From Escherichia coli (lineage in GTDB: Bacteria > Pseudomonadota > Gammaproteobacteria > Enterobacterales > Enterobacteriaceae), in assembly GCF_017348835.2 (NCBI RefSeq), contig NZ_CP072315.1: a DNA stretch of 64,000 bases, one strand, 5' to 3'. The position numbers were made by a program, and so were the translations under genes. Under the pieces are notes generated by a model. It ran no database searches. It worked only from the letters and a program-made list of their open reading frames with translations, and had not been told where the DNA came from. Positions 21,872 to 51,770 of this stretch are shown here, in pieces; position 1 is the first letter of the stretch; every line of letters begins with the position of its first letter.

Positions 21872-22048
21872 TTAATAGAATTCTTCATAACCGGGGTTTT
21901 CAGTTGAGTTTGCGGACTCTTTACTTTGCGGTTTCTCACCCTCTAGTTGAGTATCCCTGACAGGCTTGGATTTACCCATGCTCCTCTGAAAGGTATCCAT
22001 AACAAACTCAATATCTTCTTCTGGCAGGCTGGTGGGTTGGTTGCTCAT
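21872..22048 (-). CDS. small acidic protein (58 aa), translationally coupled; not in ORF track
   Basis: ATG overlaps the stop of the 563-aa gene (ATGA); reads MSNQPTSLPEEDIEFVMDTFQRSMGK...; below the track length cutoff. Confidence 0.35.
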   Translation of the reverse strand: MSNQPTSLPEEDIEFVMDTFQRSMGKSKPVRDTQLEGEKPQSKESANSTENPGYEEFY

Positions 22049-23736
22049 AGGACTTCCTCTTGTTGAATACGTTCGGCGTACAGGATGCGAACCGAAACGG
22101 TCGTGTTTTCAAACTCGTTCTCAAAAACGTCCATCCATTCCGTCCGGAATTCTTCCCCCAAAAGGTTATCGAGCCCCTGAAGAGATAATGGAAGAACGGC
22201 TGCTAGAGATCCCCCGGCTGCGAGATGAGATGCAGCTGCCTGGAGATGCAGCCTGGCCCGGTTATCGGCAAAAGGTGGGTTCATCACGACATAATCAAAC
22301 TTCTTCTGTTGATTAGACTTAGACCATGTGAGGAAGTCAGCTTCTGTCGTATCGTATCCCTTAGCCCGGGAGATAAGGCAATTCAAAGTATCAAGCTCGA
22401 TGCCAGTAACGATCACACCGGCAGGGAATGATTTAAGCAAATCCGCATGGCCAATATTAGGCTCCAGGAGGGTATCCCCTTCCCCTGCACCAAGCAGGGA
22501 AGATACATATTCGCTGATTCGGCAAGATGAAGGGTAAAACTGATGCGATACAATATCAGGCATCTCCCCTATCTGGCCGATGTAACGAATAACCTCACAC
22601 GGATCATAGGAAAATGTCACATCGTATTTTGTTACTGTTGCCCCTAAGAACCGAAGGGTGTCAGCGGCAACACTCGAAGATTTGCGTTCGGCGAGAGACC
22701 CTAAAGATGTCCAGCAACTCCATTTATTGTCCCCGTCATTTTTAAACATCAGTTCAGAAAGCTGCATCCGGGTATCAAAGTCGATGCACTGCTTAAGTAC
22801 AGGGAATGCCTCCAAAGATTTCTTGCTATGAGCCATACGGTCGGCAGGTAATGCCAGCGGTACGATAGCTGATAAAATATTGTTAAGCCGCTCGGCGATA
22901 TCAGGGTGGACGTCAATATGCATTGATCCATTTTTGTAAACCCTGAAACGAATACTGTTGCCATCGATGCAGATCCATTTTCTGAACCCCTCATGTTCGA
23001 CCAACGCCTCAACCAATGATTTGGTGTTATGGATCGCCTTCACCTGTTCGCCACGGAAGAATGCGCATATAACGCGGAGCTCGCTCAGCGGTGAAATGCC
23101 AGACTCTTTAAAATCCACCCTTAATTTCTGCCAGGGGTATTTAGACGGCTCGCAAACTCCGGTAGTGATCATGCGGGTGGAGAACCCAAAAGCTTTGTTT
23201 GTCTTGTGACTGCGGCTCAGAGACTGGAAGACGTCGTAAACCCTTTCTTTAATAAATTGATTGCGGTCATTAAGCAAAGCAACGACTGTGCCCACTACAG
23301 CGTCAGCTGTGAAATCAGGGATCACCTGAGGCGGCATAATATAACGGTCGGCCGTAAACTGCTTATCCCATTCGTTACGTTTGGCATCCGACATGATAGG
23401 CAAAACATCAGTGAGTGCCATAACGCATTTCCAGTATTCTGATCTCAGAGCGTTTTCTGCGAACAAAGCATCCGCTTCTGAGATGCTGTGGTTGTAGCCT
23501 GAGAGATAAGAATAAAGTTTCTGGTGATTGTGGGTTTTGAACTGGACAGCCATGAGTTTCAACAAGCAGAGTTCATCATTATAGGACTCAACAAGATCCG
23601 CGATAATGCCGAGCTCTTTGCGCATATCTGGAAGAAATGTTTCAGGAGAGCTAACCACCAGGCTATGAGAGGTTGTTAAAGCCAGTACGCTGTGACCTGC
23701 ATTATCGGGTTTAGCTTCAGAATCAAGAGATGACAT
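22045..23736 (-). CDS. two-domain protein: unknown N-terminal domain (~380 aa) fused to NPPF-type adenine methyltransferase domain
   Basis: C-terminal LEPNIGHADLL ... FDYVVMNPPF ... GGSLAAVLP is paralogous to the standalone methyltransferase at 7070-7831. Confidence 0.6.
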   Translation of the reverse strand: MSSLDSEAKPDNAGHSVLALTTSHSLVVSSPETFLPDMRKELGIIADLVESYNDELCLLKLMAVQFKTHNHQKLYSYLSGYNHSISEADALFAENALRSEYWKCVMALTDVLPIMSDAKRNEWDKQFTADRYIMPPQVIPDFTADAVVGTVVALLNDRNQFIKERVYDVFQSLSRSHKTNKAFGFSTRMITTGVCEPSKYPWQKLRVDFKESGISPLSELRVICAFFRGEQVKAIHNTKSLVEALVEHEGFRKWICIDGNSIRFRVYKNGSMHIDVHPDIAERLNNILSAIVPLALPADRMAHSKKSLEAFPVLKQCIDFDTRMQLSELMFKNDGDNKWSCWTSLGSLAERKSSSVAADTLRFLGATVTKYDVTFSYDPCEVIRYIGQIGEMPDIVSHQFYPSSCRISEYVSSLLGAGEGDTLLEPNIGHADLLKSFPAGVIVTGIELDTLNCLISRAKGYDTTEADFLTWSKSNQQKKFDYVVMNPPFADNRARLHLQAAASHLAAGGSLAAVLPLSLQGLDNLLGEEFRTEWMDVFENEFENTTVSVRILYAERIQQEEVL

Positions 23737-23983: not shown

Positions 23984-25147
23984 TTATTCTGCGTCCGGCT
24001 GTGGGTCAGTATCCTGATCGGTCTCTTCCCCTGCCTTCTTAGCATTTTTTTTACGTGGGTATTTTGGCTTCTCACCATTAAGTTTTGCCTGACGATTCTC
24101 CGCACGGCGAAGCTGCTTGTTCTCTGATTCTGTGATCTCTTTTGAAAGATTTCTCAACATCTCCAGAGTACTGCGGTTCAACGTAATGTTGATTTCTTCG
24201 TCAGCACTTGAATCTGTCAGCTCCGGCAATTCAATATCCCCCAGTTTCTGTAATAAGCTGGTGGTGATGAGTTTGACGCCTTCTACGGCTTTTGTGGCAA
24301 TAACCGGCGGAATCCGTGCTGGCTTGAAGTCTGAAGGTCTGACTCGTACCTGACCATGTTGGGTTTTTTTCACCGTGATGCCATTCGCATCGGCCTGCTC
24401 AAGTTCTGCGATCATCTTCTTGATACGTGAAATTGCTTCTGTTTCGCCGAGCTCATCGATCAGTGAAAGCACGTTAACATACGAAATAGCGTCAGCATGA
24501 ATCCATTTCTTGATAACAACAGAACAGGTTGTCAGGCGGATAAGAGAACTGATGGTCGTCGGGCTTTTATTTTCACGTTGAGCAATTCGTTCGAGTGACC
24601 AGCCAGCAAGAGAATGTAGGCGACGATAGGACTCGCCAAGCGCAACAGGAGAAAGCGCAAGACCACGGTTACCATCAATGGTCGCGAGCTCACAGCCAAT
24701 TTCATCTTCTTTAATCTCAACGCAAAGGATTGTGATGTCATGATCTTCATCACATGCCATCATTGCGGCTTTTAAACGGCAGTGCCCCTGGCGAACAAAA
24801 GGTACCCCATCAATGACACGTACTCGGATAGGGTCTACATAGTCACCTCGAATGTAGGCATTCTTGATGTTGTAGATGTGTTCTTCAACCTCAGGGAGCT
24901 TATAGTAATCGTCACCCATTCCCATTTCGCGGGAGTTGAAGCCTGGCGTGACCTGAATTACTGAAGGGTGGATAGCCCATGCTTTCTGGTCACTTACTTC
25001 AGTACAAAGTTCAGGGTTTGCATCACGGAACTGTTTAAGCCCAGTGACGTAACGGCCTGTGCCAGTAACTACTGAAAAGGCAACATGGGCCGTTTTAAAG
25101 ACCTTGTCATTAGCTTGCTGTGTAGGTTCTGTCAGTAAAACACTCAT
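23984..25147 (-). CDS. ParB/Srx-like nuclease-domain protein (387 aa)
   Basis: N-terminal FNSRE ... VRQGHCRLKAA resembles the ParB N-terminal box; paralogous to the ORF at 28358. Confidence 0.55.
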   Translation of the reverse strand: MSVLLTEPTQQANDKVFKTAHVAFSVVTGTGRYVTGLKQFRDANPELCTEVSDQKAWAIHPSVIQVTPGFNSREMGMGDDYYKLPEVEEHIYNIKNAYIRGDYVDPIRVRVIDGVPFVRQGHCRLKAAMMACDEDHDITILCVEIKEDEIGCELATIDGNRGLALSPVALGESYRRLHSLAGWSLERIAQRENKSPTTISSLIRLTTCSVVIKKWIHADAISYVNVLSLIDELGETEAISRIKKMIAELEQADANGITVKKTQHGQVRVRPSDFKPARIPPVIATKAVEGVKLITTSLLQKLGDIELPELTDSSADEEINITLNRSTLEMLRNLSKEITESENKQLRRAENRQAKLNGEKPKYPRKKNAKKAGEETDQDTDPQPDAE

Positions 25148-25516
25148 AGGGGCTCCGTTACATTTTTCTGCTTACTTTCTGCGTAGCGGGGATACTACCG
25201 AAAAAAAAATTCATAATTTTTCGCAAAAAAGGTACTTTTTGAGCCTATTCTGATTTTTTACAAAAAAAGGTGGCTCCCCATTACTTGTGATGGCATAAAA
25301 ATCGCTTCATAAACAAATACATAAATCCAAAACATAAAGTTCAGGTATAAGTGAGGAAAAATCTTATAAATCCGAAATGCTGAAAGTCAAAACTGTGCGT
25401 CTTAAACAACTTTTTTTTGCTCCCTAAGTTATTAGTTAAAGCCCGTGGTTAGGTACGATACCAGCACCTAAATTTCTCTCTCAGGTATAGACACTTTGAC
25501 TCGACATCTCAGACAC

Positions 25517-26329
25517 ATGCCGATAATCAAATGGGCTGGTGGAAAAACGAAACTGATGCCTTTCATCAGCCATCACTACCCACACGATCATAGTTGCCGG
25601 TGGGTAGAACCCTTTATAGGCGGTGGTGCCGTTTTTCTGAACATGTTTGCACAAAATGCATTGCTTGCAGATAGCAATCCAGACTTGATCAACCTATACA
25701 GGACTATTCAAAGACAGAAAACTAACTTTATAAATCAGGTCCAAAACTTGGCGGATAAAACCTTTGTCGAAAAGGACTACTATGAGATGAGGGACCGTTT
25801 CAACAAAACCTGTATTTCTGGTCAATCGCTTCAAAGAGCGGCTTTGTTTTACTCCCTGAATCGCCTGGGCTATAACGGTATGTGCCGCTATAACTCAGAA
25901 AGAATCTATTCAGTGCCGTGGGGGAAACATACAGAACTGAAGCTTGACCTCAATAAAATAGACTACCTTTCATTTCGTCTTTCAGGTATTGAACTGATCA
26001 CCGCTGGTTTTGAGGAGACTCTGGCCGCAACCGGTGAAGGAGATCAGATTTACTGTGATCCGCCATATGACAAAACAAGCAAAACTAGTTTTGTCAGTTA
26101 CGATGGTAAACCGTTCAGCCAAAGCGACCACGTGCTGTTAGCAAATATGCTCGTTGACGCTCACAGAAAAGGCGCTGCTGTTGCGATATCAAATAGCCTG
26201 ACATCATTCACTTTGGGCCTCGATGAAGAGCGTGGATTCGTCATACACAGACTCAGCGCTTACCGATCCGTAGGAAGTAAGCCGAATACACGGAAAACGG
26301 AAACAGAAATACTGGCCGTGCTGAAATAG
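25517..26329 (+). CDS. dam: Dam-family DNA adenine methyltransferase (GATC type predicted)
   Basis: KWAGGK, EPFIGGGAVF, NRLGYNGMCRYN and DPPY motifs closely parallel E. coli Dam; ATG at 25517 (track uses TTG at 25496). Confidence 0.8.
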   Translation: MPIIKWAGGKTKLMPFISHHYPHDHSCRWVEPFIGGGAVFLNMFAQNALLADSNPDLINLYRTIQRQKTNFINQVQNLADKTFVEKDYYEMRDRFNKTCISGQSLQRAALFYSLNRLGYNGMCRYNSERIYSVPWGKHTELKLDLNKIDYLSFRLSGIELITAGFEETLAATGEGDQIYCDPPYDKTSKTSFVSYDGKPFSQSDHVLLANMLVDAHRKGAAVAISNSLTSFTLGLDEERGFVIHRLSAYRSVGSKPNTRKTETEILAVLK

Positions 26330-26337
26330 AGTAAATT

Positions 26338-27195
26338 CTAATCAACTAGGCTAATCCATTCCTCAAAAGTTAATACCTCAGGGTAAGTTCGTTGAACATA
26401 AGGTATAAACTGAAGCTCTTCTATTCTCCGGTCGCCCCTCTTTCCTTCGCAAATAAATGAAATGAGTCCTTGCTGAGAAAGGCCAGTAAGGACGCTCATA
26501 AGTCTTATATTTAGACTTTTAAGCTGTAAGTCGTTATTAATGTCCTCCACTTTATGAGAGCTCTGGCCTGAACGTTTAAGATACTCGTAAACCATGAAAT
26601 TCGAATTTCGTCGTTTTAACAATTTTTCGGTTATGCATTCCTGAATGAAGTCGCCAAGAGCATCTAAAAGCGGACTGAGAACTACCGGGAAAGTTAATGT
26701 GTAACTTTGAGAAGTTTTAGACAAAGTGAATGAGTTTAGAAAGCTAAAGTTTAGTCTCTTTTTTGAATATGGAACATAAGCGACAAGAGTAGTCGACATA
26801 ACAGTAAGTAAAGCTTCAAGATGGTTCACTGTTATTAAAGTGGTTTTATCTGTATTTCTAAGATTATGGAAATCAATAAACGCTACTCTTGAACGGCTAA
26901 GCCAATCTTGTACTTTAATGTCGATAGAAAATTGCGAGATATGATTTGAACATTCATTTTGGGTGATAGGGCATGCAGACGAAAGATGGTTATGGATTAT
27001 CATGCATAGCACAAAAAAAGGAAAACGGCAGGCTGTGGGGCATTGAAAACCGGTTAAAGAAAGCTTAGACGTTTCATATGCGCTTACCGGAAAAGTAACT
27101 TTTCTTAACGTTGGCTTTGACGATGTTCTTGCATTTTTACAAATGAAACCGAGACCCAGATCATTGTGCATTTTAAAGTCCATCTCCATCATCAC
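26338..27195 (-). CDS. hypothetical protein (285 aa)
   Basis: Complete ORF convergent with dam; no motif recognised. Confidence 0.45.
   Translation of the reverse strand: MMMEMDFKMHNDLGLGFICKNARTSSKPTLRKVTFPVSAYETSKLSLTGFQCPTACRFPFFVLCMIIHNHLSSACPITQNECSNHISQFSIDIKVQDWLSRSRVAFIDFHNLRNTDKTTLITVNHLEALLTVMSTTLVAYVPYSKKRLNFSFLNSFTLSKTSQSYTLTFPVVLSPLLDALGDFIQECITEKLLKRRNSNFMVYEYLKRSGQSSHKVEDINNDLQLKSLNIRLMSVLTGLSQQGLISFICEGKRGDRRIEELQFIPYVQRTYPEVLTFEEWISLVD
27091..27103. promoter_or_regulatory. palindrome site AAAAGTAACTTTT (dispersed family)
   Basis: Exact 13-bp palindrome with GG/C flanks, near the 5' end of the gene at 26338-27195. Confidence 0.35.
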
Positions 27196-27426
27196 CTTTT
27201 AGCCTTAACTGTATGGTATTGGTATACAAAAAATTAAAATTATAATTAATAAGATTATCATTTTTTTACAATAGAAAAGGTTCTGATAGAGGGGAATTTA
27301 AATGTAAAAGATTTATACTCGCAGATCTTTATGAGGGATAAAACCCATTGCGTAAGCAACAATATTACGTGAGTGAGTCCTAACGACAGTTAAAGTCTTG
27401 GCTCTATATTTAAGCAGCAAAAACAT

Positions 27427-28143
27427 TTAACTGTCTTGGAGTTTATTTAACTTAAAAACTGTTATTGCAGCATAATTTTTCGAATCAAATTCATAGAATT
27501 TTCTGACTTTTCCAGTCAAATGATAACGTTCACCCAATAAAATGTGATCCTGTTTATCGGCCGTTAAAGCGATCCCGTCATTTCTAACTTTACCAGTAAA
27601 TGTAAAAAAATAACTCCCTTTACTTTTTGCGTACGCGGCCCTGACTTCAGTAAATGTTAGTTCAATGCTTATGACCTGGCCGATATTGTAGCTATGTTTT
27701 AAAATTTCTTGTTCATTTTCCGGAGTTTCAGACAACATCACATCAAAAGTTGTAAAGAAACAATCCAGCTGGCGTTCTGTCAAGAAACGGTTATTGTCTA
27801 ATTGCGCCAATATACTATTAGAAAACTTAGTGTTAGCCTTTTTTGCTTTCTCAATAAGGACGTGGTTTCTGGATTTCCATGCTTCGAGTGTTGGGTTAAC
27901 ACGCAGTTCCGGAATGTTATCGAGAAAGGTAATTGGCTCTAGTGCCACTAATTTTTCAATAATGGGTCCAACTGTTTGTACCCCATGACACTTTTCACAT
28001 AAATCAGCCCCTTTGTGGCCTGTGCCCGCACATTCGTTACATTCTCTTTCGATAGGTGCATAATAATTTCCATCTCCGTTAAGTGATACATTCACTGAGG
28101 CTGGTACCATATGACCATCAAGAGTAAAGAAAAGAGATTTCAT
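27427..28143 (-). CDS. zinc-ribbon protein (238 aa), function unknown
   Basis: CNECAGTGHKGADLCEKCHG (CxxCxGxG-type) motif; last gene of operon with the ParB-like gene. Confidence 0.5.
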   Translation of the reverse strand: MKSLFFTLDGHMVPASVNVSLNGDGNYYAPIERECNECAGTGHKGADLCEKCHGVQTVGPIIEKLVALEPITFLDNIPELRVNPTLEAWKSRNHVLIEKAKKANTKFSNSILAQLDNNRFLTERQLDCFFTTFDVMLSETPENEQEILKHSYNIGQVISIELTFTEVRAAYAKSKGSYFFTFTGKVRNDGIALTADKQDHILLGERYHLTGKVRKFYEFDSKNYAAITVFKLNKLQDS

Positions 28144-28340
28144 TTTCGAAACACCTCCAAACGTGCCTCTACGATTGCTACAGCTTCTTTCACAGTTTTT
28201 TCATAGTGGTCATGCCCTTCAGGAAATTGATCAAAACGTTTACCGTGTTCTAACTCTTCCATGTTGCGTTTAAGGACTTCATGAGTTAGAAGCAAATCAC
28301 TATAATTATCGATAAGAGTCAGCTTTATAGGTTTAATCAC
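28140..28340 (-). CDS. small protein (66 aa)
   Basis: Stop overlaps the downstream gene start (operon position). Confidence 0.4.
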   Translation of the reverse strand: MIKPIKLTLIDNYSDLLLTHEVLKRNMEELEHGKRFDQFPEGHDHYEKTVKEAVAIVEARLEVFRK

Positions 28341-28357
28341 TCAACTAATCCTCGTTT

Positions 28358-29413
28358 TTAATATTCCTTAAGGAGATCTCGAATTTCCAGAAGCTCTTCT
28401 AATTTTGGTTTAGAAACAATGATTGCTGTATTTTCGTCGTTAAGTAAAGACAATAAAATATTTAGCTTTTCATCATTCAAGATTATTTGAACACCATCAT
28501 TGGAAAATATTACATTATTACTATTAACATTTTTGAACAAGTGTGCACTATCTCTACCAAATTTTAGTTCTGTTTGAGTATTCGTTATAGATTCCGTATG
28601 TGTACTTTCCACAAGCTCAAGAAATTCAGATTTTAGCCGTTCTGTTTTCTTATGCGAGAGGCGCTTAATACCCAAAGTCTTACGAGTGACTGCCGAATTT
28701 TTCTTTTCTGGTCCGCCTTTATTTAAGGTGTCTGGTCCTGCTCCAGCTGCATTGTGTTCAGGTATGCCTACAATTTTGCTCGTTGTAGTCTCAATATTCT
28801 TAACGCCAGGTAAGAAACCTTCTATATGTTTTAAAACCATTTTGTGATCGTTGGAATATTTTAACATTATTTCAATGGCGAGCGTTTTTTTGATTAGATT
28901 TAGGCTAATCAAACGTTGAAGCTCTAATGGCATATCAAGGATTTTTAGCATATTACGAATTGCGGTAGTTGATCGTTGATATCGCATTGCTAGTTCTTCA
29001 ACCGAATACCCGAGACTAACAGCATGAGCTAATGCATGAGCTTGCCCAACCGGATTTAGCCCATTGCTTCTGTTACCATCGAGGTTCTCAAGGTATTCTT
29101 CAATTTCGTTTTTATAATCGATTAGGATAACAGATAATTTTGGAATATTAGCACCTTCAGAAATTGCTAATTTTAAGCCATGAAAACGAGTATGACCTTG
29201 ACGAACTAAATATTTACCTTTTCTTTTTACGACCTTGATCATATCAACCTGCCTTCCTTCCTTAAAGGCTTGTTTGATTGACACAATCATCGACTTGACA
29301 GGTTCTTGTTCGTAACACAAATCTCCGATTACCGCCTCTCGGGGATTAAATCCCTTTTCAATTTCAACTAGATTAGTATCCACTTCAATGACTGTATGTT
29401 TGCTGTTGTTCAT
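28358..29413 (-). CDS. ParB/Srx-like nuclease-domain protein (351 aa)
   Basis: FNPRE ... YLVRQGHTRFHGLKLA ParB-box-like motif; paralog of the ORF at 23984. Confidence 0.55.
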   Translation of the reverse strand: MNNSKHTVIEVDTNLVEIEKGFNPREAVIGDLCYEQEPVKSMIVSIKQAFKEGRQVDMIKVVKRKGKYLVRQGHTRFHGLKLAISEGANIPKLSVILIDYKNEIEEYLENLDGNRSNGLNPVGQAHALAHAVSLGYSVEELAMRYQRSTTAIRNMLKILDMPLELQRLISLNLIKKTLAIEIMLKYSNDHKMVLKHIEGFLPGVKNIETTTSKIVGIPEHNAAGAGPDTLNKGGPEKKNSAVTRKTLGIKRLSHKKTERLKSEFLELVESTHTESITNTQTELKFGRDSAHLFKNVNSNNVIFSNDGVQIILNDEKLNILLSLLNDENTAIIVSKPKLEELLEIRDLLKEY

Positions 29414-29419
29414 ATCTTC

Positions 29420-29889
29420 CTCCTGTTTACTACATGATACATGAACCTCAAATTTGCCAAATAGGGCTGATACATCTAAAAGGTAAACTCAAAAAATTTG
29501 CTTAATAAAATTAAAATAAAAACTGTCTTGAATAAAACAATGATAGTAGACCCTCGTTCATTTCCGTTTGCGATCTGTAGATATTGTTAAAGGAGCGCTA
29601 TTCCTTGTTTTATATGGACTTATCATTGTTTTCAACAGGATAGATCAATTCTTTAGATCACTAAAGATCAATAGAGTTCAAGTAAAGATCACGGCATCTT
29701 TAACTCATTGATTATAGTGACTTTATGAAAGGATCCGGCATTCGGATGCATGCGAAAAGCATTTGAATGAATAAGGAAGGCATTTACTGGAATGCTTATG
29801 GCATTTAGGTTAATGCGTAAAAAGCATTTGCAAGAATATGTTATAAACAGTTTGCCAAATGAAAATCTTATCACCGACGAGTTAAGTTA
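29420..29889. other. putative oriV / rep promoter region of second replicon
   Basis: Four GATC sites within about 50 bp (29651-29700) and four ~21-bp direct repeats of type GCATTTnnnTGAATG (29735-29860) upstream of rep. Confidence 0.5.
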
Positions 29890-30765
29890 ATGATTAAAAA
29901 CAACGAGTTAATCCATCCTTTTGACGTAACCAGTAATGAATCAGGTAAGACTTATCAACTGACGCCTAACTCGTCCAAGTCGGTTCAGCCCGTGGCCCTG
30001 TTGAGATTGAGTGTATTTACCCCTGTCGGCACAAAAGAAAACCGCGACCGAAACTTTGAAGTTGATGCCTCTGATGAGCTTTCGTGTATGGAAATTGCAA
30101 GATCGGAGGGTTATGACGACATCAAGATAACTGGTGTCAAACTATCTATGTCTACCGACTTTAAGTGCTGGCTCGGGATCATCATGGCTTTCAGTAAATA
30201 TGGTTTTACTTCCGAGAAGATTACCCTGACTTTTAACGAGTTTGCGAAGATGTGTGGTATCAGTTCAACAAACATCAACAAACGAACTCGTGCGCGCTTT
30301 AAAGAGTCATTAATGAACCTTGCATCGGTAGTGCTTGCCTTCTCAGACTCTCGGAGTGGTCGGTTCACAGTAACGCATCTGGTGCAGAAGGCTATGATTG
30401 ATCCAAAAAGCGATACTGTTGAGTTGGTTGGGGATCCTTCTATGTGGGAACTGTATCGTTACGACCATAAGACATTGTTAAGCCTTCAGGTTCTATACAT
30501 TTTGGCTAAAAAAGAAGCTGCGCAATCTCTCTATATTTATTTTGAAGCAATGCCAGCTGGTACGTTGTTCGTTAATATGAAACGGTTGAGGGAAAGGTTG
30601 CTTCTTACAACCCCTATTCGTACGCAAAACCAGATAATTCGTAAAGCAATGCGGGAACTTGAATCTATCGGATATCTCGATTATCAAGAAGTTAAGAAAG
30701 GTCGCGACATACAATTTCAGATCTTCAAAAGAAGCCCTAAGCTGGCCCTCGCCAAACAAGGTTGA
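29890..30765 (+). CDS. iteron-type plasmid replication initiator, second paralog (RepFIB/RepHI-like)
   Basis: 291-aa protein paralogous to the Rep at 15391; iterons upstream and downstream. Confidence 0.7.
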   Translation: MIKNNELIHPFDVTSNESGKTYQLTPNSSKSVQPVALLRLSVFTPVGTKENRDRNFEVDASDELSCMEIARSEGYDDIKITGVKLSMSTDFKCWLGIIMAFSKYGFTSEKITLTFNEFAKMCGISSTNINKRTRARFKESLMNLASVVLAFSDSRSGRFTVTHLVQKAMIDPKSDTVELVGDPSMWELYRYDHKTLLSLQVLYILAKKEAAQSLYIYFEAMPAGTLFVNMKRLRERLLLTTPIRTQNQIIRKAMRELESIGYLDYQEVKKGRDIQFQIFKRSPKLALAKQG

Positions 30766-30874: not shown

Positions 30875-30887
30875 AAAAGTAACTTTT
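30875..30887. promoter_or_regulatory. palindrome site AAAAGTAACTTTT (dispersed family)
   Basis: Exact 13-bp palindrome about 110 bp downstream of rep. Confidence 0.35.
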
Positions 30888-31659: not shown

Positions 31660-31672
31660 AAAAGTGACTTTT
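31660..31672. promoter_or_regulatory. palindrome site AAAAGTGACTTTT (dispersed family, central G)
   Basis: About 240 bp upstream of the pilin gene start. Confidence 0.4.
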
Positions 31673-38843: not shown

Positions 38844-41525
38844 ATGGAAGCTATCAATAATTACAATAGCGGTTTAAATCGCCATCAATTAGGTGGGTTT
38901 ATCCCTGTTTACGATCAATTAGCAGGGACTCACTATTTTTTGATTGATGGCAACAGATTAGGGTTTATGTTTATCTGTAATCCATCACCTGGAGTTTTTG
39001 ATAATCAGCAAGATGTTCTTGCTGAAATGTTCAAAATGGATTTTCCTACAGATACTGTCTGTCAAATATCTCTGACTGCATTGCCAGACTTGACTTTACA
39101 GCTTAGTGCTTGGTCAGCTGTGCGAGGTGGGCGTATGACTGGGAACGATAAGCTTAAAGCAGATCTGCTTAATGGTTATCAGTTGGACTACTACGACAGA
39201 AGTATGCATAAGCCTTTAAAACCTGATCATGATAACCTTATGTTGAGGGATTTTCAGGTATGGATCTCGCTATCGATTCCTTTACAGTCTGCCCTTCCTA
39301 CCGAGCTGGAACATTCGCGTATCGATTCACTTTACTCTGAACTTGTAAGTAAGTTAATTACGATTGGACTGCATCCGATTAAGGTCGATGCAGAAAACTG
39401 GCTCTATTGTATAGATAAGGTCGTAAACCCCGGAAAGAACTCTCGGTGGGCTGAAGGTTTTATAGACGTTAACACTATGAAAAGGCTTAATGAACAAGTT
39501 AACGTTCCCGGCCGTAAGTATACAGTCACAGAAAATCATTTCTCATCAGTCACACAAAGTGACGACGAATCTGAGCATCGTTACTTCAAACAACTTTCCG
39601 TTGTAAAGTTTCCTGAATACGTCAATTTCGGTTGTATGTATGAGTTAGTAGTTAACTGGATGCATGGACGTAAGACAATTTTCAGCCCATTTATGATCAC
39701 TCAGACTGTTCAGTTTGCCGATCCGCTCAAGTTGTCAAAAGAAAACGTCCGCTACAAAGCAATCACTAATAAACAGGCAAGTATACCTTCAGTTGTCACA
39801 TTCTGCCCTCGCCTGCGGGATATGGATAATGACTACATGGCCGTAACTCGCGAGCTTGAGGATGGCGCAAAGCTTTTAAGAGGGTATCTTACTTTCACTG
39901 TTATGGGTAGTAATGCCAATTCTGTGCAGACAGCAGCTAACGATCTCAAATCCTTTTACCTCGAAAGCCGGGTCAAAGTAGCAGATGATTCCTTTATCGT
40001 TTTCCCGTCATTTATGTCATGTCTGCCAATGTGCAATGACCCAAAGACAATTTTCGACCTTGACCGATCCGAAGTAGTGAGCAACACCGGAGCGGCTCAT
40101 ATGACGCCGATCTTTGGGCCCTGGAAAGGTAATACAGATAGACCAGTACTGAGTTTAGTTTCTCGTGAAGGTCAACTCATGGGACTTGATATTTTCAAGA
40201 CTTCTGCAAGCTATAACATGGTTATTGGTGCAACGTCAGGTGCAGGCAAGTCATTCTGGACAGCATATCTAATCAATAACTATCTTGGAGCTGGACCGCG
40301 ATCTAATAACCTCGTTCATTATCGCTCAACATTTAAGCATTTTTTAGAAAACGAATACCCAGATGATGATCCTGATGGTGCTCAAGTTTTTGTAGTGGAC
40401 GTGGGGCGTTCTTACCAGGGGATTGCGGAACAATATACAAACAGTCAATTTATTGATTTCGGTAAAACCCCTGACTTCACCCTAAATCCCTTTGCCTTCC
40501 TAACTGACATCACTGTTAACGACGATGTATTTAACGAAGCACCTGAATTTACCGGTGAATCAACTTCAAACGATGCAGAAAAAGACAAAGTTGCTCAGAC
40601 CATAATGGTTCTGAATCAGCTAAAAATTATGGCTTCAGAGAAAGGCCTTATCGATGATTATCAACAATCAGTGATGCTTCAGCTTATTGCAGAAGAGTAC
40701 CAGGAATCCAGAAAATCAGGTCGGACCGGTTCAATAACCGGCTTTGCTCTGCGTTGCAAGAAGCATGAAGACAAACGTATAAAGGATATTGGGGAGCAAC
40801 TCGGAGCATGGTGCGAAGGTGGAATTTATGGGCACCGGTTTACCGATACGTTGCCTCCAATCAACTTCGACAGCAGATTTATTGTTTTGGAACTGGAGGA
40901 GCTAAAAGGCACCCCCCACCTTCAGACAGTTGTTTTAATGTCTATCATTCAGGCTGCTCAGCATGCAATGTTCATCAAAAAAGATGGGCGTCGTCGCTTG
41001 TTCATCCTAGATGAAGCTTGGGAGTACATTCGTCCTGATAATTCATCAGGTGCCGGAAATCAATCAAACCAATTCTTCTCTTCCTTCCTCGAAGCGGCAT
41101 GGCGTAGGTTCAGGAAAACAAACTGCGCTGGCATCTGTATCACACAGTCGTTTGAAGATTATTTTACTTCTTCTGTTGGCCGGGCCCTGACTGCTAACTC
41201 GCCTTGGAAGATAATCATGAAACAAGAAAAAGAAAGCATTGAAGCAATGAAGGCTAATAAATATTTTTCTACTTCAGATGCAGAATATGAACGAATGAAA
41301 AATATTCGTACAGTCAAAAAGGTGTTTTCAGAGATGTTAGTCAGGTTCGAAAACTTCCAAGAGATCTGTCGGTTATACGTAGACCGGAAAATGGAGCTTT
41401 GTTTTACTACGGATAGTGCTGACAGGAGTAAATTATGGGAAATTCAAAGCCGCGAGAATTGTAGCTATGGCGAGGCAATAGAAATTCTCTATGCTCAAGA
41501 AGTAGCAGCGGGTTTGGCCGCGTAG
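38844..41525 (+). CDS. trhC: TraC/TrhC-like T4SS ATPase (VirB4 family)
   Basis: 893 aa; Walker A GATSGAGKS; Walker B-like LFILDEAWEY. Confidence 0.8.
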   Translation: MEAINNYNSGLNRHQLGGFIPVYDQLAGTHYFLIDGNRLGFMFICNPSPGVFDNQQDVLAEMFKMDFPTDTVCQISLTALPDLTLQLSAWSAVRGGRMTGNDKLKADLLNGYQLDYYDRSMHKPLKPDHDNLMLRDFQVWISLSIPLQSALPTELEHSRIDSLYSELVSKLITIGLHPIKVDAENWLYCIDKVVNPGKNSRWAEGFIDVNTMKRLNEQVNVPGRKYTVTENHFSSVTQSDDESEHRYFKQLSVVKFPEYVNFGCMYELVVNWMHGRKTIFSPFMITQTVQFADPLKLSKENVRYKAITNKQASIPSVVTFCPRLRDMDNDYMAVTRELEDGAKLLRGYLTFTVMGSNANSVQTAANDLKSFYLESRVKVADDSFIVFPSFMSCLPMCNDPKTIFDLDRSEVVSNTGAAHMTPIFGPWKGNTDRPVLSLVSREGQLMGLDIFKTSASYNMVIGATSGAGKSFWTAYLINNYLGAGPRSNNLVHYRSTFKHFLENEYPDDDPDGAQVFVVDVGRSYQGIAEQYTNSQFIDFGKTPDFTLNPFAFLTDITVNDDVFNEAPEFTGESTSNDAEKDKVAQTIMVLNQLKIMASEKGLIDDYQQSVMLQLIAEEYQESRKSGRTGSITGFALRCKKHEDKRIKDIGEQLGAWCEGGIYGHRFTDTLPPINFDSRFIVLELEELKGTPHLQTVVLMSIIQAAQHAMFIKKDGRRRLFILDEAWEYIRPDNSSGAGNQSNQFFSSFLEAAWRRFRKTNCAGICITQSFEDYFTSSVGRALTANSPWKIIMKQEKESIEAMKANKYFSTSDAEYERMKNIRTVKKVFSEMLVRFENFQEICRLYVDRKMELCFTTDSADRSKLWEIQSRENCSYGEAIEILYAQEVAAGLAA

Positions 41526-44900: not shown

Positions 44901-45000
44901 CTCCTGAAGTTGGGTTTCAGTTCTGGGCTAGGTTGCTAACTCTGCTCCCATAATTCGTAGTGGGCCTACTCAAGAGATTAACACCTCATATCTTTAGACT
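41950..45000. repeat. tandem array of about 13 diverged direct repeats of ~235-257 bp (at least three unit subtypes, higher-order duplication)
   Basis: Anchor CAGATTTAACCCCCTTAATCGCCAAACTGGG recurs at about 41955, 42416, 42664, 42921, 43171, 43411, 43660, 44121, 44371, 44620, 44868; every unit contains TCGCCA and ATTTAAC. Confidence 0.8.
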
Positions 45001-45361: not shown

Positions 45362-46615
45362 ATGAATTTACTTGAAAAGATCGCCCTCGTTGGTCAGCGC
45401 ATGAAAAGCGAGCAGATTTCTCTTAAGGAATCTCTGATGGCTTCATCAAGAGTATCTGTTTCTGATGATAGTGTTGATGGTGTTGATAGACTGATCTACA
45501 ACCACTGTTTAAATAAAAAAAATCTCTCTGATTTTTTTGGGAAGTCACGAGTAACGTTCAATAAAATACTTTCGGACTTAGAAGAAAAAGAAGTTGTTGG
45601 TGCACCTATTTATCAAAACAAAAATCATCTTTACACCCGCTGGGATGTTCAAAAAATAATGGATGCCCTGGGTTATCCCAAGTACCGCGATCATTACTTT
45701 AGCAGAGCTATTGTTACTCAGAATCATAAAGGCGGTACAGGGAAAAGCACTACATCTGTAGCTTTAGCAGTAGCAGCTGCTTTAGATCTACAACTGAATG
45801 CACGTGTATTAATGATCGAATGGGACCCACAAGGTTCGATTGGAAGCAGCATGATTCAAAGTGTCTCAGAAGATGATGTCTTCCTTACAGCAATTGATGC
45901 AATCCTTGGAATTTATGAAGAAAATTCTGAGTATAAAAAATATTTAGATTCAGGATTCTCTGAAGAAGAAATCATCACTAATATGCCTTTTTCAACGCAT
46001 CTGCCAAACTTGGACGTGATAACGGCATTTCCGACAGATGCTCGTTTTAAAGATAAATACTGGCAATGTTCTAGAGAAGAACGAACGTCTTTGTTACTAC
46101 GTTTCAAGGAAGTTATCTTACCGGTACTGAAGCAGAACTATGATTTGATTATTATAGACACTCCACCTGAAGATTCACCTTTGATCTGGGCTGCTGACGA
46201 AGCGGCCGATGGGATTCTTGTCGCAGTGTCACCACGTGAATATGATTACGCCTCTACTACAGACTTCATGCTTACAATAAGTGAAAGGTTTAAACAATCA
46301 CCAAGTAAGGGCGATAATTTAAAATGGTTCAAAGTTCTTGCTGTCAATGTTGATGACAAAAGTCCATATGAAAGAATAGTTTTGGATAAATTAATCAGAA
46401 CTGTTCAGGACCTTTTGATGTCCGCTAACATAAAAAATTCTGAAGCATTTAAGGCAGCTGCTTCCAAAGGGCGTACAGTGCTTGATATCAAAAAATCAGA
46501 GGAACTTTGTTCCGCAAAGCAACTTGATGTCGCAGAAGAATCTGTATTACAGGTATATCAACAATTTATAAATGAAATAAAAAGTTTTTCAGCTAAGCAA
46601 GGAGTTAACGCATGA
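45362..46615 (+). CDS. parA: type Ia partition ATPase ParA (SopA/P1 ParA-like, with N-terminal extension)
   Basis: Deviant Walker A KGGTGKST; 417 aa. Confidence 0.8.
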   Translation: MNLLEKIALVGQRMKSEQISLKESLMASSRVSVSDDSVDGVDRLIYNHCLNKKNLSDFFGKSRVTFNKILSDLEEKEVVGAPIYQNKNHLYTRWDVQKIMDALGYPKYRDHYFSRAIVTQNHKGGTGKSTTSVALAVAAALDLQLNARVLMIEWDPQGSIGSSMIQSVSEDDVFLTAIDAILGIYEENSEYKKYLDSGFSEEEIITNMPFSTHLPNLDVITAFPTDARFKDKYWQCSREERTSLLLRFKEVILPVLKQNYDLIIIDTPPEDSPLIWAADEAADGILVAVSPREYDYASTTDFMLTISERFKQSPSKGDNLKWFKVLAVNVDDKSPYERIVLDKLIRTVQDLLMSANIKNSEAFKAAASKGRTVLDIKKSEELCSAKQLDVAEESVLQVYQQFINEIKSFSAKQGVNA

Positions 46616-47616
46616 GCGATGAGCAACATATCGGGAATGATAAATCTCGATATTTAAACGCACCAAAGCGGACAGAAGTCGGTCACCGTTCAGGTCTTGC
46701 GGGTTTGAAAACAGCACCTCGCATAAAAAAGTTATTCACTCTTCATAAGGGCCGAAGACTTGAAGCGGAACATGTGATTGTTCCAGCCCAGAGAGTGGAG
46801 AAGGAGACCTTAGTCCATCCAGCAAACCCACGAAATCAAGAAGCCCTTACAGATTATTCTGTTAGAGATATTCTTAAGCAGATTGAAGAAAGAGGGGTCG
46901 ATACCGAAGGGATCGCTGTAAAAAGAGATGGGGTTTATTTATTAATAGAAGGAAGTCGCAGACGTTTCTGCTGTATAAAGGCAGAAAAGGATCTCCCCCT
47001 GTGGGTACTACCGGATGAACTAACCGAAGATGATATAAATTCAATTATATCCGCAGCACAAACATCTCGAAAATTTTCATATAGAGAAGTTGGGTTTCAA
47101 TTTATCAAGAAAATGGAAGAAAAGGGATTTTCTACTAATGAAGAACTCGCAGCATATCTTGGGATTAGTCATGTATCGGTAGCCAAAAGAATCCAGGCGG
47201 CACGTATTGACGAAACATTGATCTCTTTATTCCCGGATTATGAAGGAATACCGAACTCCTATTATAGTCGCTTGTCTCGTTTACAGAAATATGTGCAAAA
47301 AAATCTATTTCCTTTAGATGAAGTAATAGATAATGTTAAAGAGGAAACAAAAGATTTAGACATTGGAGATCTCCAAGTTGCCCAAAAAGTTGTAATGGAG
47401 AAAATCACACAATCTGTGGAAAGTGTTTGTGAAAAATCTTATTCCACAAAATGGGAAACAAGTGATCTTATTACTTTTGATAACAAAGATAAGTATGCAA
47501 GAATCAGTAAAAACAATACTGGAAGAAAAATTCGCATTGAATTCAATAGGATAAGTGCGGGTTTTATTAAGGAGCTAGAGGAGTTCATAAAAGAAAAATT
47601 AAAAGTATCAGAATAA
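46612..47616 (+). CDS. parB: partition protein ParB (centromere-binding)
   Basis: ATGA overlap with parA; ParB box-like LLIEGSRRRF; 334 aa. Confidence 0.7.
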   Translation: MSDEQHIGNDKSRYLNAPKRTEVGHRSGLAGLKTAPRIKKLFTLHKGRRLEAEHVIVPAQRVEKETLVHPANPRNQEALTDYSVRDILKQIEERGVDTEGIAVKRDGVYLLIEGSRRRFCCIKAEKDLPLWVLPDELTEDDINSIISAAQTSRKFSYREVGFQFIKKMEEKGFSTNEELAAYLGISHVSVAKRIQAARIDETLISLFPDYEGIPNSYYSRLSRLQKYVQKNLFPLDEVIDNVKEETKDLDIGDLQVAQKVVMEKITQSVESVCEKSYSTKWETSDLITFDNKDKYARISKNNTGRKIRIEFNRISAGFIKELEEFIKEKLKVSE

Positions 47617-51759: not shown

Positions 51760-51770
51760 TGAGCTAGAAC

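What the first reader, a model, noticed from the sequence alone, without database searches (positions are those of the whole stretch)
27427..29413. ParB-like nuclease-domain gene in an operon with a 66-aa ORF and a zinc-ribbon protein
The ParB/Srx-like gene at 28358-29413 is followed by overlapping small and zinc-ribbon genes, and a paralogous ParB-like gene (23984-25147) lies 3 kb away. Orphan ParB-like proteins on plasmids may act as nucleases, regulators or anti-defence factors. They are also the best candidates for binding the dispersed palindrome.
Basis: inference. Interest (0 to 1): 0.45.

Follow-up and report, generated by a model that had tools for sequence, protein, structure and literature searches.

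The report
Orphan ParB-like operon, IncHI plasmid
A three-gene operon kept by most of the IncHI family of large resistance plasmids encodes a ParB-type DNA-binding protein that has no partition partner, a tiny helical protein and a zinc-ribbon/OB-fold protein; in plasmid R27 it is switched on with the conjugation genes. Its job is untested, but it looks most like the KorB/BisD class of plasmid DNA-clamp regulators, not a nuclease.

Summary
On the minus strand of this IncHI2 backbone, ParB1 (28358-29413), a 66-aa ORF (28140-28340) and a zinc-ribbon protein (27427-28143) form a tightly coupled operon. A true paralogue, ParB2, lies at 23984-25147. The operon is conserved beside the Tra2 transfer genes in seven lineages.

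ParB1 has a ParB/Srx N-domain with Box I/II/III-like motifs, a ParB HTH and its own C-terminal domain. It has no ParA partner. Pfam's "ParB-like nuclease" model is not detected in any family member. The zinc-ribbon protein ends in an OB fold like those of single-strand-DNA binders.

Published R27 microarray data show the orthologues R0037-R0041 induced 4-19x in the conjugation-derepressed htdA mutant at 25 C.

The palindrome AAAAGTNACTTTT is real: 10 copies against 0.01 expected here, and 26 and 42 perfect copies in two whole plasmids. It is invariant in all eight lineages, enriched between genes, and clustered upstream of the orphan ParB-like genes. ParB1's recognition helix is equally invariant, but ParB1's own promoter lacks a site. 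An IncHI1B/FIB plasmid without ParB1 keeps the palindrome.

The binder is unresolved among ParB1, ParB2, ParB3 and the partition ParB. Verdict: a new, uncharacterised member of the orphan ParB-fold regulators. Interest is moderate.

The parts
28358..29413 (-). ParB1: orphan ParB-fold protein, 351 aa. It has an N-terminal ParB/Srx domain (GFNPRE, GHTRFHG, ENL), a ParB HTH (recognition helix TAIRNMLKIL), a disordered linker at 204-239 and a family-specific C-terminal domain. It is the orthologue of R27 R0037.
28140..28340 (-). 66-aa ORF with a GTG start, translationally coupled to both neighbours. It is conserved at 34-50% identity in four lineages (invariant G33, R35, F36, D37, G42, H43). Orthologue of R27 R0038. 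It matches no known family.
27427..28143 (-). 238-aa protein with an N-terminal DnaJ-type zinc ribbon (CxxCxGxG, then CxxCxG; the window copy reads CEKCHGVQ), a helical middle part and a C-terminal OB fold. Orthologue of R27 R0039.
29414..29889 (.). Intergenic region shared with the divergent repHIA gene. It contains conserved AAATGC repeats and four TGATCT (GATC) repeats. It has no palindrome with up to 2 mismatches. The block ATGTATCATGTA just upstream of the ParB1 ribosome-binding site is conserved with R27.
26338..27195 (-). Conserved 285-aa neighbour, orthologue of R27 R0040. It matches no family. It probably has its own promoter, and it carries a palindrome 68-101 nt into its coding sequence.
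27091..27103 (.). Perfect palindrome AAAAGTAACTTTT inside the 5' end of the R0040-like gene. R27 has a site at the same position.
25496..26329 (+). Orphan Dam-family adenine methyltransferase, orthologue of R27 R0041. It is part of the conserved block.
25227..25239 (.). One-mismatch palindrome AAAAGGTACTTTT, 80 nt upstream of the ParB2 start codon. A site at this position (90-131 nt upstream) is seen in four other lineages, and farther upstream (370-399 nt) in two more.
23984..25147 (-). ParB2: paralogous orphan ParB-fold protein, 387 aa, orthologue of R27 R0042. It has a variable recognition helix and a conserved N-terminal GRxVxGLKQF motif.
22045..23736 (-). DUF4942/N6-adenine methyltransferase downstream of ParB2, orthologue of R27 R0043.
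30875..30887 (.). Perfect palindrome just downstream of repHIA. It is the nearest site on the upstream side of the ParB1 operon.
31660..31672 (.). Perfect palindrome about 215 nt upstream of trhA, the first gene of the Tra2 pilus operon. A site at this position is conserved in R27 and in the IncHI1B/FIB plasmids.
46612..47616 (+). Context only: the plasmid's true type-Ia partition ParB, with ParA at 45362-46615. It is the main rival candidate for binding the palindrome.

Best explanation
ParB1 is an orphan member of the ParB NTP-switch fold that has nothing to do with partition. It is a sequence-specific DNA-binding protein.

I propose that it acts as a KorB/BisD-type DNA clamp or regulator during the conjugation programme of IncHI plasmids. 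The co-translated 66-aa helical protein and the zinc-ribbon/OB-fold protein would be its partners.

Shown here:
- The fold, the retained Box I/II/III-like motifs and the invariant recognition helix.
- The absence of a ParA partner and of a ParA-contact peptide.
- The deep conservation of the three-gene unit beside Tra2.

Shown by others, in R27: the operon is nearly silent in the wild type and is induced 4-7x only when conjugation is derepressed at 25 C.

Inferred:
- ParB1 binds an NTP and clamps DNA.
- Its loading site or operator is the family-wide 13-bp palindrome AAAAGTNACTTTT, which has the 6-N-6 layout of the KorB operator. I put this step alone at about 0.35.
- It would share this site with the paralogues ParB2 and ParB3.
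- The OB-fold partner links it to single-stranded or newly transferred DNA.
For: Fold and motifs:
- The AF2 model has pLDDT about 90 over residues 11-200.
- Foldseek best matches are Noc, KorB (8qa9, TM 0.62-0.64), ParB-CDP and Spo0J.
- The family profile hits Noc, Spo0J and KorB sequences at E 4e-10 to 1e-4.
- G73, R76 (GxxRxxA position), E109, N110 (aligned to the canonical Box III EN) and GFNPRE are invariant in six lineages.

Orphan status:
- ParB1 starts directly at the first strand of the domain.
- The ParA/ParB and ParM/ParR systems lie elsewhere.

Operon conservation.

Regulation: R27 R0037, R0038 and R0039 rise 4.2x, 7.0x and 5.0x in drR27 at 25 C and do not change at 37 C (PMC7366339 Table S4).

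Palindrome:
- It is far above chance.
- It is the top palindrome in all eight lineages.
- R27 has 26 perfect copies, 14 of them intergenic against 20% intergenic DNA, p=1.7e-4.
- It sits 80-131 nt upstream of ParB2 in five lineages and upstream of ParB3 in both plasmids that have it. Six and eight sites cluster upstream of the two orphan ParB-like operons of the IncHI1B/FIB plasmid.
- ParB1's helix T(A/T)IRNxLKI..MP is invariant down to 38% overall identity. ParB3 has a similar helix.
- In L020 and L002 a site lies 156-227 nt upstream of the first gene of the ParB1 operon.

Precedents for orphan ParB-fold regulators on mobile elements: BisD (PMC12409273), HerB (PMC13370423) and the survey of orphan ParBs.

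Against: - There is no biochemical or genetic evidence for any step.
- Box II deviates from GERRxRA. It reads GHCRxxA, and GHTRFHG in this window. Nucleotide specificity cannot be predicted from sequence (section title).
- ParB1's own promoter has no palindrome in IncHI2 or IncHI1.
- The IncHI1B/FIB plasmids lack ParB1 and the 66-aa gene, yet they have the highest palindrome density.
- ParB1 is weakly expressed (about 100 AU), whereas ParB2 is among the highest-expressed genes of R27.
- Many non-tra genes of R27 are also induced in drR27, so co-induction is weak evidence of a role in conjugation.
- The block lies about 60 kb from the oriT region (mobI at 107.7-108.1 kb in R27), so it is not a leading-region gene set.
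- The intergenic enrichment of the palindrome could partly reflect AT-rich intergenic DNA.
Confidence: 0.4

Rival explanations
1. The palindrome belongs to another protein. It could be a dispersed parS of the type-Ia partition ParB (46612-47616), as in IncC plasmids, or the operator of HtdA or TrhR/TrhY. ParB1 would then have a different, unidentified target, for example the repHIA origin region next to it.
For: - IncC plasmids carry 14 dispersed palindromic parS sites bound by their partition ParB (PMC10954446). I saw the same core 7 times in 40 kb of an IncC locus.
- The partition ParB is present in all three lineages compared, and its HTH segment KR(I/V)QAA is invariant.
- A site lies 600-960 bp downstream of parB in three lineages.
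- ParB1's promoter has no site.
- Conserved sites lie upstream of trhA, htdT and the Ig-like rsp-type genes, all of which belong to the HtdA regulon.
Against: - There is no cluster of sites at parAB. Instead a 249-bp x 10.5 array without palindromes lies upstream of parA.
- Clusters lie at the orphan ParB-like genes instead.
- The 6-N-6 layout matches the operators of KorB-type HTH_ParB proteins. This point rests on my own knowledge.
Confidence: 0.25
2. The operon is a DNA-processing or establishment module. The OB-fold/zinc-ribbon protein would coat or mark transferred single-stranded DNA. ParB1 would organise the double-stranded product, or recruit priming or replication at repHIA, in the donor or the new host.
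For: - The OB fold resembles SSB, RPA, PriB, LEF-3 and MCM-N, and its zinc ribbon resembles those of primases.
- Induction occurs only in conjugation-permissive conditions.
- In IncHI1 and IncHI2 the operon is adjacent to and divergent from repHIA.
- The related ParB-like gene of phage 9NA lies in the replication module, near the primase, helicase and methyltransferase genes.
Against: - repHIA is absent next to ParB1 in L002, L004, L019 and L020.
- The operon is far from oriT.
Confidence: 0.15
3. The operon is a helper for self-methylation or anti-restriction. The ParB-like proteins would load on plasmid DNA and guide or stimulate the neighbouring orphan methyltransferases (Dam, and the DUF4942 methyltransferase) so that the plasmid is protected before or after transfer.
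For: - Members of this ParB-like family repeatedly sit next to methyltransferases: ParB2 with the DUF4942 methyltransferase, ParB1 near Dam, an IncC orphan ParB-like gene near a site-specific methyltransferase, and phage 9NA gp81 near gp78.
- Dam (R0041) is co-induced 7.8x.
Against: - There is no PADLOC or anti-defence hit for ParB1, the 66-aa ORF or the zinc-ribbon protein.
- The DUF4942 methyltransferase R0043 is not co-induced (1.5x).
- The IncHI1B/FIB ParB2-like operon has no adjacent methyltransferase.
- The block is not in the leading region.
Confidence: 0.1
4. ParB1 is a nuclease of the ParB/Srx superfamily, of the Osa type, or an extra partition protein for the RepHIA replicon.
For: - The ParB/Srx fold includes some DNases. 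Sulfiredoxin structures appear among weak Foldseek hits.
- In IncHI1 and IncHI2 the gene lies next to repHIA.
Against: - PF02195 is not detected.
- A full ParB HTH with an invariant recognition helix argues for site-specific binding.
- There is no ParA partner, no N-terminal ParA-contact peptide and no adjacent centromere-like repeat.
- Two complete partition systems already exist on the plasmid.
Confidence: 0.05

Closest known systems
KorB of IncP plasmid RK2 (ParB-family global repressor and CTP clamp)
   Same: - Both have the ParB N-domain plus HTH_ParB fold. KorB structures 8qa9 and 8qa8 are among the best matches.
- Both plasmids carry many copies of a 13-bp 6-N-6 palindrome, partly in promoters. 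The KorB operator TTTAGCSGCTAAA is quoted from my own knowledge.
- Both have a small co-encoded protein.
   Different: - KorB is also the partition ParB and has a ParA partner (IncC). ParB1 has none.
- The KorB C-terminal domain was not detected, and PF08535 KorB appeared in only 1 of 21 members at E=0.02.
- The 66-aa protein has no similarity to KorA.
- Binding of ParB1 to the palindrome is untested.
BisD of ICEclc (ParB-like CTP clamp that activates transfer-competence promoters together with BisC)
   Same: - Both are orphan ParB-like proteins on a MOBH-type conjugative element.
- Both carry an extra domain absent from ParB.
- Both work, or are encoded, with a small partner and are tied to the transfer programme (PMC12409273).
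   Different: - BisD loads at two bisS sites, whereas IncHI plasmids have 26-42 palindromes.
- IncHI already has the known activators TrhR and TrhY.
HerB (YfjB) of the F plasmid (leading-region ParB-like CTP-binding protein that reprograms host transcription)
   Same: Both are orphan plasmid ParB-like proteins with a CTP-type pocket, an HTH and a novel dimerisation domain, and both are expressed around conjugation (PMC13370423).
   Different: - HerB is roughly 650 aa (structured residues reach at least 625), is encoded in the leading region, is induced zygotically, and binds the host chromosome without a clear motif.
- ParB1 is 351 aa, is not in the leading region, and its recognition helix is invariant.
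Canonical ParB/Spo0J and Noc
   Same: The fold is the same. The recognition helix aligns as TAIRNxLKIL against STIANKLRLL, and the Box III EN residues align.
   Different: ParB1 has no ParA, no ParA-contact peptide and a different C-terminal domain. Its Box II is GHCR rather than GERR.
IncC partition ParB with 14 dispersed parS sites
   Same: Both are large MOBH plasmids with one palindrome scattered over the backbone (seen).
   Different: In IncC the binder is the partition ParB. IncC also has an orphan ParB2-type protein (31% identity) whose function is unknown.
Phage ParB-like family phrog_1033 (for example Salmonella phage 9NA gp81)
   Same: This is the best family-level match: ParB1 E=1.9e-25 and ParB2 E=3.3e-28. 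The homologues occur in virulent phages that have no need for partition, next to a DNA methyltransferase.
   Different: The phage proteins are shorter, their function is unknown, and they have no partner like the zinc-ribbon protein.
OB-fold ssDNA-binding proteins with zinc modules (LEF-3, RPA70 DBD-C, MCM N-domain, phage SSBs)
   Same: The C-terminal domain of the zinc-ribbon protein is an OB fold, with an N-terminal Cys4 zinc ribbon.

Membership tests
ParB/Srx (ParB-CTPase) fold superfamily | N-terminal ParB/Srx alpha-beta domain | tested here: met
   The AF2 model has pLDDT about 90 over residues 11-200. Foldseek matches KorB, Noc, ParB and Spo0J over about 200 columns, and sulfiredoxin weakly. 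The profile search of PDB sequences aligns from residue 44. Pfam PF02195 itself is not detected.
ParB/Srx (ParB-CTPase) fold superfamily | Box II GxxRxxA phosphate-binding motif | tested here: inconclusive
   G73 and R76 are invariant. The family consensus is GHCRxxA, but the window copy reads GHTRFHG, and the first Arg of GERR is Cys or Thr.
ParB/Srx (ParB-CTPase) fold superfamily | Box I (xPR) and Box III (EN...R) motifs | tested here: met
   GFNPRE is invariant. E109 and N110 are invariant and aligned by HMMER to the ENL of Noc and Spo0J, with a 3-residue insertion. ParB2 lacks the EN residues.
ParB/Srx (ParB-CTPase) fold superfamily | Binds and hydrolyses CTP (or another NTP) | not testable with these tools
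   This needs DRaCALA or ITC and a hydrolysis assay. [quoted passage not shown]
Partition ParB (ParABS) | Adjacent ParA ATPase gene | tested here: not met
   The operon is ParB1, the 66-aa ORF and the zinc-ribbon gene. ParA/ParB and ParM/ParR lie 16-23 kb away.
Partition ParB (ParABS) | N-terminal ParA-activating peptide | tested here: not met
   ParB1 has only 5 residues before the first strand of the domain.
Partition ParB (ParABS) | Centromere repeats next to the gene | tested here: not met
   There is no palindrome with up to 2 mismatches and no tandem array in 27427-29889.
KorB-type global regulator | Many palindromic operators on the plasmid, partly in promoters | tested here: met
   This holds for the plasmid, not yet for ParB1. 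R27 has 26 perfect sites, 54% of them intergenic.
KorB-type global regulator | The protein binds those operators | not testable with these tools
   The only support is indirect: an invariant recognition helix and sites upstream of the paralogues.
KorB-type global regulator | KorB C-terminal dimerisation domain and a KorA partner | tested here: not met
   Pfam finds no KorB_C. The 66-aa protein matches no family.
ParB-like nuclease (Pfam PF02195 label; Osa-type DNase) | Match to PF02195, or nuclease activity | tested here: not met
   PF02195 is absent at E<=1 in all 21 members. Activity was not testable.
Known anti-phage defence proteins (PADLOC) | Match to a PADLOC model | tested here: not met
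   There are no hits for ParB1, the 66-aa ORF, the zinc-ribbon protein or ParB2. Only the DUF4942 methyltransferase hits methyltransferase models.
DnaJ-type zinc ribbon plus OB-fold ssDNA-binding proteins (for the 238-aa protein) | Two CxxCxGxG-type units; OB barrel | tested here: met
DnaJ-type zinc ribbon plus OB-fold ssDNA-binding proteins (for the 238-aa protein) | Binds single-stranded DNA | not testable with these tools
   This needs EMSA or fluorescence anisotropy with ssDNA.

The most novel reading that the evidence does not exclude
IncHI plasmids run a plasmid-wide ParB-clamp regulon that has not been described. Up to three orphan ParB-fold paralogues (ParB1, ParB2, ParB3) would load at 26-42 copies of one invariant 13-bp palindrome and spread over the backbone. 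ParB1, with its 66-aa partner and a zinc-ribbon/OB-fold protein, would be the conjugation-specific arm. It would couple the transfer programme to transcription, methylation or handling of the transferred DNA. This would be a multi-paralogue elaboration of the KorB/BisD principle.
Probability: 0.2. Interest if true: 0.7.

Novelty: new member of a known kind. Interest (0 to 1): 0.45.

Why it matters
IncHI1 and IncHI2 plasmids carry multidrug resistance in typhoid Salmonella. In the plasmid collection searched here, this backbone includes an mcr-1 plasmid (pEGY1-MCR-1). According to the R27 deletion study, two thirds of R27's ORFs have no known relative.

This operon is a conserved backbone unit that in R27 is induced with the conjugation genes. 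It belongs to the fast-growing class of orphan ParB-fold switches on mobile elements (KorB, BisD, HerB).

If ParB1 or its paralogues read the invariant palindrome, that would give IncHI plasmids a global control layer that could be tested directly by ChIP-seq, EMSA and deletions. It might also be a target for limiting plasmid spread. If not, ParB1 is one more hypothetical DNA-binding protein.

Tried and rejected
- Two scans of genome contigs with ParB-like alignments. The first chose a poor pattern and found nothing. The last scan returned only three identical IncHI2 loci and one IncHI1B-like locus, so there was no new diversity for a covariation test.
- A covariation test between helix and palindrome is impossible, because the palindrome is identical in all eight lineages.
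- Consensus promoter and terminator scans around the operon and the palindromes were uninformative.
- Rfam found nothing in the window.
- PADLOC found nothing for the operon proteins.
- Full-text searches for the palindrome sequence, and for IncHI together with ParB-like, found no description of either.
- The afdb50 fold library was unavailable.
- I first concluded that IncHI1B/FIB plasmids have no protein with a ParB1-type recognition helix. A whole-plasmid tblastn then found ParB3, whose helix is similar, so I softened that argument.
- I first took R27 'R0153 partition protein' for a third ParB-fold gene. By its position next to the cytosine methylase it is more likely the thermonuclease-type gene. 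The real third paralogue is at R27 92336-93541.
- The 285-aa neighbour is not detectably related to RepHIA or to the 254-aa protein at the same position in IncHI1B/FIB.
- Inverted repeats in the 249-bp array upstream of parA gave no clear centromere motif.
Full report
**Where the window comes from.** The region 27000-30000 is 100% identical to hundreds of IncHI2 plasmids of Salmonella, E. coli and Enterobacter (1114 PLSDB records). In the RefSeq annotation the finding lies between repHI2 and the trfA-like repHIA gene, next to the Tra2 transfer operon (trhA, L, E, K, B, V, C). The three genes are annotated 'hypothetical', 'hypothetical' and 'zinc finger-like'. The window also holds the plasmid's true partition systems: type-Ia ParA/ParB at 45362-47616 and ParM/ParR at 50722-52409.

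On the minus strand, ParB1 (28358-29413, 351 aa) has an AGGAGG ribosome-binding site. The 66-aa ORF (28140-28340, GTG start) begins 17 nt after its stop codon. The 238-aa ORF (27427-28143) overlaps the end of the small ORF by ATGA. No terminator-like site is predicted on that strand. ParB2 (23984-25147) is a real paralogue, with 30% identity over 174 aa and E=4e-22. ParB1 shows no significant similarity to the partition ParB (E=0.16).

**The genes are real and the unit is old.**
- The order ParB1, small ORF, zinc-ribbon gene, a gene of about 260-295 aa, Dam on the opposite strand, then ParB2 recurs beside Tra2 in seven lineages. A DUF4942 methyltransferase follows ParB2 in the four lineages where that stretch could be checked.
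- The lineages are IncHI2, IncHI1 (R27), a Lelliottia plasmid (L004), and metagenomic lineages L002, L019 and L020/L021.
- ParB1 identity falls to 38% and zinc-ribbon protein identity to 23% across them.
- The 66-aa protein is conserved at 34-50% identity, with invariant G33, R35, F36, D37, G42 and H43.
- In PLSDB, ParB1 at >=80% coverage (1377 records), its HTH segment (1393) and the zinc-ribbon protein (1393) occur in essentially the same IncHI2 and IncHI1 records.

**What ParB1 is.**
- Pfam reports only HTH_ParB. TIGR00180 (parB_part) covers residues 6-179 but scores below its cutoff.
- The family profile hits Noc, Spo0J, ParB and KorB chains in the PDB, with E from 4e-10 to 1e-3.
- The AF2 model is confident for residues 11-200. 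It has a disordered linker at 204-239 and a moderately confident alpha/beta C-terminal domain.
- Foldseek gives Noc, KorB (8qa9, TM 0.62-0.64), ParB-CDP/CTPgS and Spo0J as best matches, with sulfiredoxin further down.
- Across six lineages the invariant residues include GFNPRE, G73 and R76 (the GxxRxxA position), and E109 and N110. HMMER aligns E109-N110 to the ENL of Box III in Noc and Spo0J.
- Box II deviates from the canonical GERR. It reads GHCR, or GHTRFHG in this window. NTP binding is therefore plausible, but it is not established.
- PF02195, the 'ParB-like nuclease' model, is not found in any of 21 family members even at E<=1.
- ParB1 has no N-terminal extension that could contact a ParA.
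- The best family-level match for both paralogues is phrog_1033. Its members occur in virulent phages such as 9NA, where the gene sits in the replication module near a methyltransferase.

**What the partners are.**
- The 238-aa protein has four conserved cysteines in a DnaJ-type CxxCxGxG arrangement, a helical middle part and a C-terminal beta-barrel.
- The viral structure library returns phage proteins of similar size. A few of them are annotated as SSB.
- The family is small even in a 1.8-billion-protein search (24 hits).
- The 66-aa protein and the 285-aa neighbour match no known family.

**Expression.** The gene order in R27 fixes the orthologues as R0037 (ParB1), R0038, R0039 (annotated 'zinc-finger protein'), R0040, R0041 (dam), R0042 (ParB2) and R0043.

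Values from Table S4 of PMC7366339, for drR27 (the htdA-derepressed mutant) against R27 at 25 C:

| Gene | Product | R27 (AU) | drR27 (AU) | Fold change |
|---|---|---|---|---|
| R0037 | ParB1 | 100 | 426 | 4.2x |
| R0038 | 66-aa protein | 48 | 334 | 7.0x |
| R0039 | zinc-ribbon protein | 166 | 835 | 5.0x |
| R0040 | 285-aa neighbour | 168 | 3113 | 18.6x |
| R0041 | Dam | 80 | 624 | 7.8x |

- None of these five genes is induced at 37 C.
- R0042 (ParB2) is one of the most highly expressed genes on the plasmid: 6132 AU in R27 and 20561 AU in drR27.
- The authors list R0042 among the genes induced under all conditions that promote conjugation.
- The operon is AT-rich (36-38% GC against about 44% for the window). 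This fits silencing at 37 C, but that link is my inference.

**The palindrome.**
- AAAAGTNACTTTT occurs 10 times in the window against 0.01 expected. With one mismatch the count is 18 against 0.73.
- The core AAAGTNACTTT is by far the most frequent palindrome in every IncHI-like locus examined.
- Whole R27 has 26 perfect copies and 50 with up to one mismatch. They are spread over the backbone, and none lie in the Tn10 or tricarballylate-utilisation (tcu) insertions.
- Of the 26 perfect copies in R27, 14 are intergenic, although only 20% of the plasmid is intergenic (p=1.7e-4).
- A whole IncHI1B/FIB plasmid has 42 perfect copies and 85 core copies.
- Site positions are conserved between IncHI1 and IncHI2: upstream of trhA, upstream of htdT, downstream of repHIA, in the 5' end of the R0040 gene, upstream of the Ig-like gene, and 80-90 nt upstream of ParB2.
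- I found no description of this element in the searchable literature.

**Who binds the palindrome? Evidence for the orphan ParB-like proteins.**
- A site lies 80-131 nt upstream of ParB2 in five lineages, and 370-400 nt upstream in two more. At the observed site density, the chance of a site in a given 130-nt stretch is about 0.04. This estimate is my own, from the counts.
- In the IncHI1B/FIB plasmid, eight sites lie in the 2.7 kb upstream of the operon that runs from the zinc-ribbon-like gene through the 254-aa gene to the ParB2-like gene.
- In the same plasmid, six perfect sites lie in the 870 bp upstream of a third orphan paralogue, ParB3. R27 ParB3 (92336-93541) has sites 106 and 224 nt upstream.
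- ParB1's recognition helix, T(A/T)IRNxLKI..MP, is invariant. ParB2's helix is variable. ParB3's helix resembles that of ParB1.

**Who binds the palindrome? Evidence against ParB1 in particular.**
- No site occurs in its own promoter region in IncHI2 or IncHI1.
- ParB1 is absent from IncHI1B/FIB plasmids.
- ParB1 is weakly expressed.

**Who binds the palindrome? Evidence for the partition ParB.**
- In IncC plasmids the analogous dispersed palindrome is proven to be the parS of the partition ParB. I saw the same palindrome in an IncC locus.
- The IncHI partition ParB has a conserved HTH.

The binder therefore cannot be assigned from sequence alone.

**Comparison with known systems.** ParB1 is a member of the ParB-CTPase-fold superfamily by fold and motifs. 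It fails the defining features of a partition ParB: it has no ParA, no ParA-contact peptide and no adjacent centromere. It works most like the orphan ParB-fold regulators of mobile elements:
- KorB, a global repressor with a 13-bp 6-N-6 operator.
- BisD, a CTP clamp that activates ICEclc transfer promoters together with BisC.
- HerB/YfjB of the F plasmid.

Such orphan proteins are now recognised as common on mobile elements. What is particular here is threefold: the conserved operon with a 66-aa protein and a zinc-ribbon/OB-fold protein; up to three paralogues on one plasmid; and the very abundant, invariant palindrome.

**Verdict.** ParB1 is a new, uncharacterised member of a known kind. The most likely mechanism is a KorB/BisD-like site-specific DNA clamp or regulator that acts in the conjugation programme. 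I hold this at about 0.4, and the palindrome link for ParB1 itself at about 0.35. Interest is 0.45.

Noticed in passing
window 595, 20199, 20264, 27091, 30875, 31660, 37022, 53479, 53673, 61113 (perfect copies); whole R27 and NZ_CP054978 (L022-L025): The 13-bp palindrome AAAAGTNACTTTT is a cis element found across the IncHI family. R27 has 26 perfect copies and an IncHI1B/FIB plasmid has 42. It is invariant in eight lineages, enriched in intergenic DNA, and missing from resistance insertions. Two perfect copies lie in the mobI-proximal oriT region of R27 (108335 and 108820). I found no description of it in the searchable literature.
   Followed up: yes
R27 92336-93541 (L015 27336-28541); L022 20988-22229: A third orphan ParB-like paralogue, 'ParB3' (401-413 aa), occurs in IncHI1 and IncHI1B/FIB plasmids but not in this window. 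Its recognition helix resembles that of ParB1. It has 2 to 6 perfect palindromes immediately upstream.
   Followed up: partly
window 42404-44982: A tandem array of 249-bp units (10.5 copies, 71% matches, GC about 0.49) fills the apparently gene-free 3.8 kb between trhC and parA. It contains no copy of the palindrome. It might be the Par1 centromere or incompatibility region, or a degenerate repeat-protein gene.
   Followed up: partly
window 14155-14902, 16719-16797, 17163-17221: An 81-bp x 9.3 tandem array and two sets of 21-bp repeats flank repHI2 (15391-16479). They are probably iterons or copy-control repeats.
   Followed up: no
window 29640-29700 and 29740-29870: Four TGATCT (GATC) repeats and several AAATGC repeats in the repHIA-ParB1 intergenic region are conserved with R27. 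They look like RepHIA origin or promoter elements carrying Dam sites, next to a plasmid-borne dam gene.
   Followed up: partly
L009 18882-18980 (R27 38881-38979): Three copies of the variant AAAAGGCACTTTT, spaced exactly 43 bp apart, lie inside an annotated 92-aa 'hypothetical' ORF (R0035, not expressed) between trhA and repHIA. This may be a binding array rather than a gene.
   Followed up: no
window 23984-25147 (ParB2 residues 28-45): ParB2 orthologues share an N-terminal motif, GRxVxGLKQFRDxN, with invariant G31, F40, N44 and C48. It is absent from ParB1. It is faintly reminiscent of ParA-contact peptides. ParB2 is also extremely highly expressed in R27.
   Followed up: no
L007 18245-18927 and 21418-21939; L025 5045-5713: In IncHI1B/FIB plasmids a zinc-ribbon-like gene precedes a 254-aa gene and the ParB2-like gene. 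It appears split in pKpnB199 but is intact (222 aa) in NZ_CP054978. A shorter zinc-ribbon paralogue without the OB domain, annotated 'YuiA family', lies just downstream of ParB2.
   Followed up: partly
L008 (IncC plasmid pECO17386): The palindrome TTCACATGTGAA occurs 7 times in 40 kb. This is the published IncC parS core (PMC10954446). The same plasmid carries an orphan ParB2-type protein (312 aa, 31% identity to ParB2) upstream of a DNA methyltransferase.
   Followed up: yes
proteins P0053 (3759 aa), P0054 (2115 aa), P0058 (1697 aa): The helical middle part of the zinc-ribbon protein (residues about 111-166, motif FLTxRQL) matches 6-11 repeated stretches in giant proteins of unknown origin.
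   Followed up: no
window 26001-30000: The ParB1 operon and its neighbours have 36-38% GC, against about 44% for the window. That composition would be expected to attract H-NS.
   Followed up: no
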